Origin: the human T2T-CHM13v2.0 reference genome, Homo sapiens
DNA: 64,000 nucleotides
NCBI RefSeq assembly: GCF_009914755.1
Contig: NC_060928.1
Reading direction: 5' to 3' (one strand)
Within the stretch, counting starts at the first letter, position 1. Every line of letters starts with the position of its first letter. Positions 61,757 to 62,559 of the stretch are shown here, piece by piece. Made by a program: the position numbers and the translations under genes. Under the pieces are notes generated by a model, which saw nothing but the letters and a program-made list of their open reading frames with translations, was not told the DNA's origin and ran no database searches.

Positions 61757-62559
61757 CAGAGGTCAGAAAACTTTACTTGGAAAGGACCAGATAGTACATA
61801 TTTTAGAATTTGTGGGCTACCTGCTCTCTCCTGTGTGTGTTGGGGATGCATGCATGCATGTTTTACAATCTTTTCAAAAATATGAAAACCTAGGCCGGGC
61901 GCAGTGGCTCACGCCTGTAATCCCAGCACTTTGGGAGGCCGAGGCGGGCGGATCACGAGGTCAGGAGATCGAGACCATCCTGGCTAACACAGTGAAACCC
62001 CGTCTCTACTAAAAATACAAAAAAATTAGCCAGGTATGGTGGCAGGTGCCTGTAGTCCCAGCTACTCGGGAGGCTGAGGTAGGAGAATGGCATGAACCCG
62101 GGAGGGGGAGCTTGCAGTGAGCTGAGATCACACCACTGCACTCCAGCCTGGGTGACAGAGTGAGACTCCGTCTCAAAAAAAAAAAAAAAGAAGATATAAT
62201 TTTGAGATCATCCCTGAGTTTAGAGTATATGCCAAAGCAGGCCTTATCATGGTGGTGAATTGAGACCTAAGTATACACACAGGAAGGCCAGTCTACGAAC
62301 TCCTTACATGTGGTCAAGAAGTTGGTACTTTACCTCTCCCAACTCTGTTCTTTACTTAGTCTTTAAGTAGCTTTCCTTGAGCAAATACAAAATAATGATA
62401 ATAAGAAAGCAGAATTTATTTGATCAATAAGAAGTAGTACTTCCTTTTAAAAAAAAAACAAACCAAAAATATGAAAACCATTCTTAACCTGAGGGCTGCA
62501 TGAAAGCAAGCTAGGCAAGATTTGATCAGTACAAACTGGCCTTAGTTTGCCAACCCCTG
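61757..62559 (+). mobile_element. MER58B split by a composite retro-insertion
   Basis: cagaggtcag ... tagtttgccaacccctg; 8-bp flanks tcctagat/tcctatat. Confidence 0.78.
61893..62189 (+). mobile_element. AluY, full length, A15 tail
   Basis: gagatcgagaccatcctggctaacac, gaatggcatgaacc, gagcttgcag diagnostics. Confidence 0.95.

What the first reader, a model, noticed from the sequence alone, without database searches (positions are those of the whole stretch)
61875..62479. Candidate Alu-associated 3' transduction: AluY + ~260 bp foreign sequence + second A-tract inside one 16-bp TSD
Seen: caaaaatatgaaaacc occurs identically at 61875-61890 and 62464-62479, and removing the interval rejoins the host MER58B. 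Between the copies lie 'ta', a full AluY (61893-62174), A15, a non-Alu segment 62190-62448 ending in TTTT with AATAAG at 62426-62431, then A10 (62449-62458). No TSD copy follows the Alu's own tail. The left junction tttc|aaaaa resembles an L1 endonuclease site. Known: 3' transduction is common for L1 and SVA but regarded as very rare for Pol III-transcribed Alu. Inference: one TPRT event copied an Alu read-through RNA, so the tag should identify the source Alu. Caveats: a T4 at 62200-62203 must be read through; a 5'-truncated Pol II/orphan transduction ending by chance 2 nt before the Alu is an alternative.
Basis: partly seen in the sequence, partly recalled or inferred. Interest (0 to 1): 0.8.

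Follow-up and report, generated by a model that had tools for sequence, protein, structure and literature searches.

The report
Alu copied with its downstream flank
An Alu element on chromosome 4 was copied from a parent Alu on chromosome 3 along with 259 bases of the parent's downstream DNA, a rarely documented event that preserves the likely start and stop points of the parent's RNA transcript.

Summary
The 259-nt tag (62190-62448) has exactly one other copy in the assembly, on chr3 at 94% identity. On chr3 an Alu lies directly upstream of the tag, with its own 15-nt target-site duplication (TSD). Homology between the two loci starts 2 nt before the Alu. It ends inside the donor's T6 run, 17 nt after a donor AATAAA. 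The copy keeps T4 and then carries A10 and the 16-nt TSD. Paralogues of the host repeat run uninterrupted across the insertion point with a single copy of the 16-mer.

So one L1-type insertion carried an Alu, its A-tail and its 3' flank from chr3 to chr4.

- **Best reading (about 0.65):** a Pol III read-through Alu RNA passed a weak T4 and stopped in the T6. It was then polyadenylated through the flank's AAUAAA, as happens in T+ SINEs.
- **Main rival (about 0.2):** a Pol II transcript polyadenylated at the same signal and 5'-truncated by chance at the Alu start.

A 2024 screen of AluY elements in this same assembly confirmed no Alu transduction. Its donor filters would probably have missed this decayed donor. 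A 2021 preprint lists 386 Alu 3' events that I could not inspect. This is a new member of a rarely documented kind. Interest is moderate to high.

The parts
61875..61890 (+). 5' copy of the 16-nt target-site duplication. The target reads CTTTTC|AAAAAT, a T-rich/A-rich junction of the L1-endonuclease type.
   Evidence: Exact repeat. The endonuclease-site resemblance is read from the sequence against the recalled TTTT/AA consensus.
61891..61892 (+). TA, two bases 5' of the Alu. They are identical to the two bases before the donor Alu: the last T of the donor's 5' TSD plus one extra A.
   Evidence: Alignment; donor TSD.
61893..62174 (+). Full-length dimeric Alu (282 nt) of a younger-subfamily type, with A-box and B-box regions matching the panel majority.
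62175..62189 (+). The Alu's own templated A-tail (A15). The donor has A18 followed by GAA.
62190..62448 (+). 259-nt transduced 3' flank of the chr3 donor. It differs from the donor at 16 of 259 positions.
62200..62203 (+). Internal T4, also present in the donor. It is a weak Pol III terminator that had to be read through.
   Evidence: T4 gave 75% termination in PMC5725217.
62327..62381 (+). Pyrimidine-rich stretch (39 of 55 bases) upstream of the polyadenylation hexamers. It may correspond to the tau signal of T+ SINEs, but this was not tested.
   Evidence: PMC8466645 passages.
62391..62396 (+). AATAAT in the copy, AATAAA in the donor (the upstream hexamer).
62426..62431 (+). AATAAG in the copy, AATAAA in the donor. 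It ends 17 nt before the end of the tag.
62445..62448 (+). TTTT, the last bases of the tag. They are the first four T of the donor's T6 run and so mark the inferred 3' end of the RNA.
   Evidence: In PMC5725217 termination fell mostly at T3-T5 of a T6-T8 run.
62449..62463 (+). Second, non-templated tail (A10 CAAAC). It is absent from the donor.
62464..62479 (+). 3' copy of the 16-nt target-site duplication.

Best explanation
One L1-driven target-primed reverse transcription event inserted a roughly 558-nt RNA copied from a source Alu at chr3:108,611,318-108,611,864 (minus strand, T2T-CHM13) into an older repeat on chr4.

The inferred sequence of events is as follows.
1. RNA polymerase III transcribed the source from the Alu's internal promoter, starting 2 nt upstream of the Alu.
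2. It ran through the Alu and its A-tail, read through a weak T4 terminator, and stopped in the first strong terminator, a T6 run 259 nt downstream. This left a UUUU 3' end.
3. An AAUAAA lies 17 nt upstream of that end, so the RNA was polyadenylated at its 3' end, as happens with T+ SINEs such as B2.
4. L1 ORF2p then primed on the new terminal poly(A) rather than on the internal A-tail, so the whole 3' trailer was copied.

Shown by sequence: the donor-to-offspring relationship, its direction, the exact end points, and the hallmarks of retrotransposition. Inferred: which polymerase made the RNA and how it was polyadenylated.
For: 1. **Single donor.** The tag has 2 genomic matches, itself and chr3 at 94% identity.
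2. **Same junction.** In both loci the tag follows an Alu A-tail at the same point.
3. **Direction is chr3 to chr4.** The donor Alu has its own exact 15-nt TSD, and the 3' copy of that TSD forms the start of the tag. The donor has no A-tract after the tag.
4. **Sharp end points.** Homology begins at TA+GGC and ends at CTTCCTTTT, and the flanks beyond are unrelated.
5. **3' end in a terminator.** The end falls on the 4th T of the donor's T6. In human cells T6 or longer gives complete Pol III termination, mostly at T3-T5, while T4 gives only 75% (PMC5725217, sections read). The internal T4 is the only other run of four or more T in the tag.
6. **5' end at the expected start.** It lies within 2 nt of the Alu's first base, where Pol III is expected to start (PMC4333407 passages).
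7. **Polyadenylation signal.** The donor has AATAAA 17 nt before the end and a second one about 50 nt before it. Pol III transcripts of T+ SINEs that carry AAUAAA near a terminator are polyadenylated in HeLa cells, and daughter copies keep a shortened T-run followed by A's (PMC8466645 passages). CPSF30 occupies Alu loci in HeLa cells (PMC12358842, section 10).
8. **Retrotransposition hallmarks.** There is a 16-nt TSD, a terminal A10, a T-rich/A-rich target, and an uninterrupted empty-site equivalent in paralogues.
9. **Shared Alu states.** The two Alus share 14 states that differ from the majority of a 42-Alu panel.
10. **Donor not inside CBLB.** The donor lies about 24 kb beyond the only CpG-island-like stretch upstream of the CBLB Cbl_N exon, so it is probably outside that Pol II unit (inference).
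Against: - AATAAA placed 17 nt before the end is also what an ordinary Pol II cleavage and polyadenylation site looks like, so the 3' end does not by itself discriminate.
- The copy starts 2 nt upstream of the Alu, not at its first G. A start at -2 is plausible for Pol III but was not shown.
- T+ SINE polyadenylation also needs internal beta and tau signals. Only a pyrimidine-rich stretch, 39 of 55 bases, is seen here, and Alu has no known beta signal.
- The copy now has AATAAT and AATAAG where the donor has AATAAA. Without an outgroup, the state at the time of the event is unknown. The same applies to the T6 run.
- The two Alus differ more than the tag does: 10 of 131 and 20 of 134 positions in the two arms, against 16 of 259 in the tag.
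- Two subfamily-diagnostic positions disagree. At 62089 and 62092 the copy has G and A and the donor has C and T. This requires later gene conversion in one of the copies.
- No sibling copy carrying a short tag that ends at the T4 was found. Only the window's own locus, 1 of 12 exact 17-mer hits, follows an Alu tail.
- I had no gene annotation, Pol III occupancy data or RNA data for the donor.
Confidence: 0.65

Rival explanations
1. A Pol II transcript through the chr3 locus (an unannotated lncRNA or read-through RNA) was cleaved and polyadenylated at the AAUAAA site. L1 retro-copied it like a processed pseudogene, and reverse transcription or integration happened to stop 2 nt upstream of the embedded Alu.
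For: - A canonical AATAAA lies 17 nt before the end of the copied segment in the donor.
- The TA before the Alu equals the donor flank, which a truncated longer template would give automatically.
- 5' truncation is the rule for L1-mediated copies (established knowledge).
- I could not see any gene annotation for the donor.
Against: - The 5' end would have to fall within about 2 nt of the Alu's first base by chance.
- The 3' end falls exactly on the 4th T of a T6 run. That is a Pol III stop point, and U is a less favoured cleavage nucleotide for the mRNA machinery (recalled).
- There is no microhomology at the 5' junction: the TSD ends in ACC and the donor reads ATT before the TA.
- The donor seems to lie outside the CBLB transcription unit, and no other CpG-island-like stretch exists within 80 kb.
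Confidence: 0.2
2. The RNA was a Pol III read-through Alu RNA as in the best explanation, but its terminal A-tract did not come from AAUAAA-dependent polyadenylation. It came from non-canonical oligoadenylation (TENT-type enzymes) or from slippage or untemplated A addition during priming on the T-rich nicked target. The nearby AATAAA would then be a coincidence.
For: - The tail is short and impure (A10 CAAAC).
- The hexamers are not canonical in the copy.
- Alu has no known beta or tau signals.
- The target offers a run of T on the primed strand.
Against: - Two AATAAA hexamers sit within 55 nt of the terminator in the donor, which is the T+ SINE layout.
- Short tails are expected in old copies, since tails shrink with age.
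- L1 ORF2p needs a 3' poly(A) tract on its template (recalled; also stated in the passages).
Confidence: 0.1
3. This was not a single retrotransposition. Either two independent insertions (an Alu, then a second element) or a DNA-level duplication or gene conversion from chr3 happens to sit between chance repeats.
For: The two Alus differ more than the tags do, and they disagree at two diagnostic positions.
Against: - The Alu/A-tail/tag junction is the same in both loci.
- There is no TSD around the Alu alone at chr4.
- The 16-mer occurs only twice in the window, and 0 of 100 shuffles gave a match.
- A terminal A-tract that is absent from the donor sits exactly at the end of the homology.
- The paralogue L016 shows an uninterrupted site.
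Confidence: 0.03

Closest known systems
L1 and SVA 3' transduction
   Same: A retroelement and its donor-specific 3' flank were copied as one RNA. The offspring carries the element, its own A-tract, the flank and a second A-tract inside a single TSD, and the flank identifies the source locus.
   Different: L1 and SVA are Pol II transcripts that bypass a weak poly(A) signal. Here the element is an Alu, and the copied unit starts at the Pol III start region and ends inside an oligo-T Pol III terminator.
T+ SINEs (B2, Dip, Ves): Pol III termination followed by AAUAAA-dependent polyadenylation (PMC8466645, passages; PMC12358842, abstract and section 10)
   Same: The 3' module has the same layout: AATAAA hexamer(s), then an oligo-T terminator, then a non-templated A-tail. 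The daughter's T-run is shorter than the parent's (T6 to T4).
   Different: In T+ SINEs the module is part of the element, and all known T+ families derive from tRNA. Here the module is chance flanking DNA 259 nt downstream of a 7SL-derived T- SINE. The beta and tau signals are not established.
Reported Alu-linked transductions: AluSx3-WaluSat (10.1101/2021.07.12.451456, passages) and one Alu-monomer case by Kojima (known to me only as cited in 10.1101/2024.04.29.591526)
   Same: An Alu carries non-Alu 3' flank to new loci inside TSDs.
   Different: This case involves a full dimeric younger-type Alu, a 259-nt unique tag and a single resolved donor that has its own TSD. Its end point lies in a terminator next to a poly(A) signal. 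The passages I read describe no such end-point analysis for those cases.
Ordinary Alu retrotransposition
   Same: It uses the same machinery: a Pol III Alu RNA with a 3' trailer up to the first terminator, L1 ORF2p, a TSD and an A-rich target.
   Different: Priming normally takes place on the Alu's own A-tail, so the trailer is lost. Here the trailer was kept and a second tail is present.
Chimeric retrocopies formed by L1 RT template switching (Buzdin-type; recalled, no paper read)
   Same: A small-RNA-like 5' part is joined to a polyadenylated 3' part inside one TSD.
   Different: In those chimeras the two parts come from different loci. Here both parts are contiguous at a single donor locus, so no template switch is needed.

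Membership tests
L1-mediated (TPRT) retrotransposed insertion | Target-site duplication flanking the whole insert | tested here: met
   Exact 16-mer at 61875-61890 and 62464-62479. There are 2 matches in the window and 0 of 100 shuffles gave any match.
L1-mediated (TPRT) retrotransposed insertion | Non-templated A-tract at the 3' end, next to the 3' TSD | tested here: met
   A10 CAAAC at 62449-62463. It is absent from the donor, which reads TTGGTC there.
L1-mediated (TPRT) retrotransposed insertion | Empty site with one copy of the TSD | tested here: inconclusive
   Only paralogues could be used. 3 of 13 paralogous repeat loci align across the junction, and L016 has one copy of the 16-mer followed by ATTCTTA. 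Orthologous empty sites could not be tested because no primate genomes are held.
L1-mediated (TPRT) retrotransposed insertion | L1 endonuclease-type target (TTTT/AA-like on the primed strand) | tested here: met
   The target reads CTTTTC|AAAAAT. The consensus is recalled, and the exact nick position is ambiguous by 1 nt.
3' transduction | Donor locus with the element directly upstream of the transduced segment, at the same junction | tested here: met
   chr3 donor: Alu, A18, then GAAGAAGATATAATTTT and onwards.
3' transduction | The transduced segment is native to the donor, which sets the direction of transfer | tested here: met
   The donor Alu's own exact 15-nt TSD overlaps the start of the tag, and the donor flank continues without an A-tract.
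3' transduction | The segment ends at a transcription termination or polyadenylation signal in the donor | tested here: met
   It ends on the 4th T of a T6 run, 17 nt after AATAAA.
Pol III primary Alu transcript as the template | 5' end at the Alu's first base | tested here: inconclusive
   The copy starts 2 nt upstream (TA). This is close to the expected start but not on it.
Pol III primary Alu transcript as the template | 3' end inside an oligo-T run of four or more, with no stronger terminator upstream | tested here: met
   The end lies in the donor's T6, and the only other run of four or more T is the T4 at 62200-62203. Terminator efficiencies come from PMC5725217.
Pol III primary Alu transcript as the template | Pol III, TFIIIC or TFIIIB occupancy, or Pol III-dependent RNA, at the donor | not testable with these tools
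   No ChIP or RNA data were available.
T+ SINE-type polyadenylation | AATAAA close to and upstream of the terminator | tested here: met
   The donor has AATAAA 17 nt and about 50 nt before the end. The copy has AATAAG and AATAAT, and the ancestral state is not known.
T+ SINE-type polyadenylation | Beta and tau signals required for polyadenylation | tested here: inconclusive
   A pyrimidine-rich stretch (39 of 55 bases at 62327-62381) resembles the polypyrimidine tau motif described. No beta equivalent is known for Alu.
T+ SINE-type polyadenylation | The signals are part of the element and inherited by its copies | tested here: not met
   The signals lie in unique flanking DNA, not in the Alu. 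The locus works like a T+ SINE but is not a member of one.
5'-truncated retrocopy of a Pol II transcript | The donor lies in a Pol II transcription unit on the same strand | tested here: inconclusive
   The donor lies about 24 kb beyond the CpG-island-like stretch taken to be the CBLB promoter, so it is outside that gene by inference. No annotation was available to exclude a lncRNA.
Template-switch chimeric retrocopy | The two parts derive from different loci | tested here: not met
   Both parts are contiguous at the chr3 donor.

The most novel reading that the evidence does not exclude
A dimeric, younger-type Alu source gene behaved as an accidental T+ SINE. Its Pol III read-through RNA ended in a flanking T6 terminator and was polyadenylated through a flanking AAUAAA. 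L1 then copied the complete primary transcript, leaving a donor-resolved fossil of an Alu source gene's start site, trailer and terminator.

If this is right, Alu 3' transduction is rare because Alu trailers normally lack a terminal poly(A), not because L1 cannot mobilise long trailers. It would also mean that the 2024 negative screen of this assembly missed real events through its donor filters.
Probability: 0.55. Interest if true: 0.7.

Novelty: new member of a known kind. Interest (0 to 1): 0.58.

Why it matters
**Alu source genes.** They are very hard to identify because copies normally carry nothing from the parent locus. Here the tag names the parent. It also records what appear to be both ends of the parent's primary transcript.

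**State of the literature.** The literature I could read is divided.
- A 2016 paper states that Alu-mediated transductions had not been reported (PMC4862182).
- A 2021 T2T preprint lists 386 high-confidence Alu 3' events without showing them in the text.
- A 2024 preprint whose authors include several of the 2021 preprint's screened 118,489 full-length AluY in this same assembly and confirmed none.

A clean, donor-resolved case shows that such events do occur. It also points to a concrete reason for their rarity, namely that the trailer needs a poly(A) signal next to the terminator.

**What follows from it.**
- A better search rule: allow decayed or differently classified donors, and require the end point to lie in an oligo-T run with a hexamer within about 30 nt.
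- A link between Alu biology and the AAUAAA-dependent polyadenylation of Pol III transcripts known from T+ SINEs.

Tried and rejected
- **Sibling copies with a short tag.** I looked for other offspring of the donor whose tag ends at the first T4. The exact 17-mer spanning the A-tail/tag junction has 12 genomic hits, against 7 for the reversed control. Only the window's own locus is preceded by an Alu tail, so no sibling was found. The search was exact-match only.
- **Tag as a known multicopy element.** Only 2 genomic matches were found. That search can miss old, diverged repeats.
- **Reverse direction (chr4 as donor).** Rejected. The donor Alu has its own TSD overlapping the tag, and no A-tract follows the tag on chr3.
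- **Template-switch chimera.** Rejected because the two parts are contiguous at the donor.
- **Donor inside CBLB.** The Cbl_N exon and the only CpG-island-like stretch in 80 kb both lie on the far side of the donor, so it is probably outside the gene. This rests on taking that stretch to be the promoter.
- **Bacterial-type promoter and terminator scan of the donor.** Not relevant to a human locus, and I gave it no weight.
- **Published version of the T2T repeat paper.** Not held under the two ids I tried, so I do not know whether the 386 Alu events survived into print.
- **Supplements.** bioRxiv supplements are closed, so I could not check whether this locus appears in either preprint's tables.
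- **Literature searches for Alu transduction.** Together they found 10 distinct papers (1, 2 and 9 listed, with overlap). I read or looked into four of them: the 2024 and 2021 preprints, PMC4862182 and PMC9311842. In PMC9311842 the passages that mention Alu report no Alu transduction.
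Full report
**1. The observation**

- The 16-mer CAAAAATATGAAAACC is exact at 61875-61890 and 62464-62479 (family D3).
- It occurs nowhere else in the window even with one mismatch allowed. None of 100 dinucleotide-preserving shuffles gave any match.
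- Between the two copies lie, in order:
  - TA (61891-61892);
  - a 282-nt Alu (61893-62174);
  - A15 (62175-62189);
  - a non-Alu segment (62190-62448);
  - A10 plus CAAAC (62449-62463).
- The non-Alu segment begins GAAGATATAATTTT, contains AATAAG at 62426-62431 and ends in TTTT.
- The Alu's own tail is not followed by a copy of the 16-mer.

**2. The interval is an insertion**

No primate genomes are held, so I used paralogues of the flanking repeat.
- The left flank has at least 40 scored relatives in the assembly. The right flank has two.
- I removed 61891-62479 in silico and compared the result with 13 paralogous loci.
- 3 of 13 (L009, L016, L004) gave alignments that run across the junction.
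- L016 reads ...TTTTAAAAATATGAAAACCATTCTTAG..., with one copy of the 16-mer followed directly by the right flank.
- 1 of 13 (L017) covers the 16-mer and the right flank only. 9 of 13 match only an upstream part of the repeat.
- This supports a single insertion with a TSD. It does not replace an orthologous empty site.
- I could not test the family name MER58B.

**3. The donor**

- The 259-nt tag has exactly two matches in the T2T-CHM13 assembly: itself, and chr3:108,611,318-108,611,576 on the minus strand at 94% identity.
- Read in the tag's orientation, the chr3 locus carries an Alu, A18, GAA and then the same GAAGATATAATTTTGAGATC....
- The pairwise alignment shows unrelated sequence up to the dinucleotide TA before the Alu. 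Continuous homology then runs through the Alu, the A-tail and the tag. It breaks abruptly after CTTCCTTTT.
- At that break the donor continues TTGGTCTATAC..., so it has a T6 run. The chr4 copy continues A10.
- The donor Alu has its own exact 15-nt TSD (AAGAAGATATAATTT in Alu orientation). The 3' copy of that TSD is the beginning of the tag.
- The tag is therefore native chr3 DNA, the chr3 Alu is an ordinary insertion into it, and the transfer went from chr3 to chr4.
- The TA at chr4 corresponds to the last T of the donor's 5' TSD plus one extra A that sits between that TSD and the donor Alu.

**4. What the end points say**

*The 3' end.*
- The copied unit stops on the fourth T of the donor's T6.
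- In human cells T4 terminates Pol III at about 75%, T5 at about 95%, and T6 or longer completely. In T6-T8 runs, termination falls mostly at positions T3-T5 (PMC5725217, two Results sections read).
- The tag contains only one other run of four or more T, the T4 at 62200-62203. The donor has it too.
- A Pol III transcript would therefore pass one leaky terminator and stop at the first strong one.

*The 5' end.*
- It lies 2 nt upstream of the Alu's first base.
- Alu primary transcripts are described as starting at the 5' end of the Alu and carrying 3' trailers of variable length up to the first terminator (PMC4333407, passages).
- Both ends of the copied unit thus coincide with the expected ends of a Pol III primary transcript of the donor.

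**5. Where the second A-tail came from**

- A Pol III transcript ends in U residues, not in A, whereas L1 needs a poly(A) tract on its template.
- The donor has AATAAA ending 17 nt before the end point. It has a second AATAAA about 50 nt before it.
- The copy now reads AATAAG and AATAAT at those places. Which state is ancestral cannot be decided without an outgroup.
- This layout (hexamers, then an oligo-T terminator, then a non-templated A-tail, with the daughter's T-run shortened) is the one described for T+ SINEs such as B2, Dip and Ves.
- Pol III transcripts of those SINEs are polyadenylated in an AAUAAA-dependent way, including in transfected HeLa cells (PMC8466645, passages).
- The mRNA polyadenylation factor CPSF30 has been found on Alu loci in HeLa cells (PMC12358842, abstract and section 10).
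- I therefore infer that the read-through Alu RNA acquired a terminal poly(A) in this way. L1 ORF2p then primed on that tail rather than on the internal A15-18, and this preserved the trailer.
- T+ polyadenylation also needs beta and tau signals. The tag has a pyrimidine-rich stretch (39 of 55 bases at 62327-62381) that resembles a polypyrimidine tau motif. This is a resemblance only, not a test.

**6. The main rival**

- A Pol II transcript cleaved and polyadenylated at the same AAUAAA would produce the same 3' end region.
- It would explain the TA automatically if the copy had been 5'-truncated there.
- Against it:
  - the truncation would have to fall within about 2 nt of the Alu start by chance;
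  - the 3' end lies inside an oligo-T run;
  - there is no microhomology at the 5' junction;
  - the donor appears to lie outside the nearest gene.
- On that last point, the CBLB Cbl_N exon is at chr3:108,571,714-108,571,968 on the minus strand. The only CpG-island-like stretch in chr3:108,572,001-108,652,000 is at 108,586,401-108,587,901. I take that stretch to be the CBLB promoter.
- The donor lies about 24 kb beyond it. I could not see any annotation, so an unannotated lncRNA is not excluded.
- I put the Pol III reading at about 0.65, the Pol II reading at about 0.2, and a Pol III RNA tailed by some other route at about 0.1.

**7. The two Alus**

*Differences between the chr4 copy and the chr3 donor:*

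| Segment | Differences |
|---|---|
| Tag | 16 of 259 |
| Alu left arm | 10 of 131 |
| Alu right arm | 20 of 134 |

*Comparison with the majority of 42 full-length Alus taken from the window and the fetched loci:*
- The two Alus share 14 non-majority states.
- The chr4 Alu has 10 private departures, all in the right arm.
- The donor has 21 private substitutions, a 1-nt deletion, and a loss of roughly the last 13-16 nt of the Alu body.
- Many of the differences are independent decays of the same CpG. This means the source was CpG-rich, and so young, when it was copied.

*Two things remain unexplained:*
- The chr4 left arm keeps 7 of 8 consensus CpGs against 2 of 12 in its right arm (Fisher p = 0.0045). 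The donor's left arm keeps 0 of 8.
- At 62089 and 62092 the copy has the younger-subfamily states (G, and an A derived from G). All 6 panel Alus of that type have G and G at these positions. The donor has the majority C and T.

Short gene-conversion tracts in one copy or the other are the simplest explanation, but I did not test this. These features do not touch the junction evidence. They do mean that the Alu bodies are not a clean record of the source.

**8. Age**

- The K2P distance of the tag is 0.065.
- With recalled neutral rates of 1.0-2.2 x 10^-9 per site per year, the event dates to roughly 15-32 Myr ago.
- The insertion should therefore be shared among apes and perhaps Old World monkeys.

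**9. Comparison with what is known**

- In 2016 a paper stated that Alu-mediated transductions had not been reported (PMC4862182, passage).
- The 2021 T2T repeat preprint lists 386 high-confidence Alu 3' transductions and describes the AluSx3-WaluSat case (10.1101/2021.07.12.451456, passages). The published version was not held.
- A 2024 preprint whose authors overlap with those of the 2021 preprint analysed 118,489 full-length AluY in T2T-CHM13. It found 633 candidates with a distant 3' TSD and possible sources for 24, and it confirmed none (10.1101/2024.04.29.591526, whole text read).
- That pipeline searches for donors only downstream of full-length AluY elements. It also requires donor and offspring to belong to the same subfamily.
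- The chr3 donor is 3'-deleted, has lost most of its CpGs and carries older-subfamily states. It would probably have been filtered out. I could not verify this because the tables are images and the supplements are closed.
- My searches for Alu transduction listed 10 distinct papers, of which I looked into four. The three discussed above deal with Alu transduction. In the fourth, PMC9311842, the passages that mention Alu report none.
- The locus is therefore a new, well-resolved member of a rarely documented kind. It may already sit in the 2021 list.

**10. Verdict**

- The transduction itself is close to certain.
- The Pol III read-through with T+-like polyadenylation is the best-supported mechanism, but it remains an inference.
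- Interest is moderate to high, for three reasons:
  - it names an Alu source gene;
  - it shows what such an event looks like;
  - it suggests why such events are rare.

Noticed in passing
window 61893-62024 versus 62025-62158: The left arm of the chr4 Alu has no private change against a 42-Alu majority and keeps 7 of 8 consensus CpGs. Its right arm has 10 private changes and keeps 2 of 12 (Fisher p = 0.0045). The donor's left arm keeps 0 of 8. Possible causes are gene conversion by a younger Alu or germline hypomethylation.
   Followed up: partly
window 62088-62092 and the matching donor bases in L002: Two subfamily-diagnostic positions disagree between the copy (G, A) and the donor (C, T), although the shared younger-type states at 62055 and 62111 flank them. 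A short conversion tract in one copy is likely.
   Followed up: partly
L002 about 1780 (the donor Alu's 3' end): The donor Alu lacks roughly the last 13-16 nt of the Alu body that the chr4 copy still has (GACAG-TC-A18 in the donor, GACAGAGTGAGACTCCGTCTC-A15 in the copy). This is a deletion in the donor after the event, and it would make the donor fail full-length filters.
   Followed up: partly
window 62391-62396 and 62426-62431: Both hexamers are AATAAA in the donor but AATAAT and AATAAG in the copy. 2 of the 16 tag differences fall in these two hexamers. The direction of change is unknown.
   Followed up: no
G000:C3:108586401-108587901: This is the only CpG-island-like stretch in the 80 kb upstream of the CBLB Cbl_N exon and is presumably the CBLB promoter. 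The donor Alu lies about 24 kb beyond it.
   Followed up: partly
window 62583-62612: An AAC-rich, A-rich simple repeat (AACAACAACAACAACAAAAACCCCAAACC) lies just downstream of the host repeat.
   Followed up: no
L002 about 890-1320: A GC-richer stretch that looks like a repeat lies a few hundred bases beyond the donor's T6 terminator, on the side downstream in Alu orientation. It was not identified.
   Followed up: no
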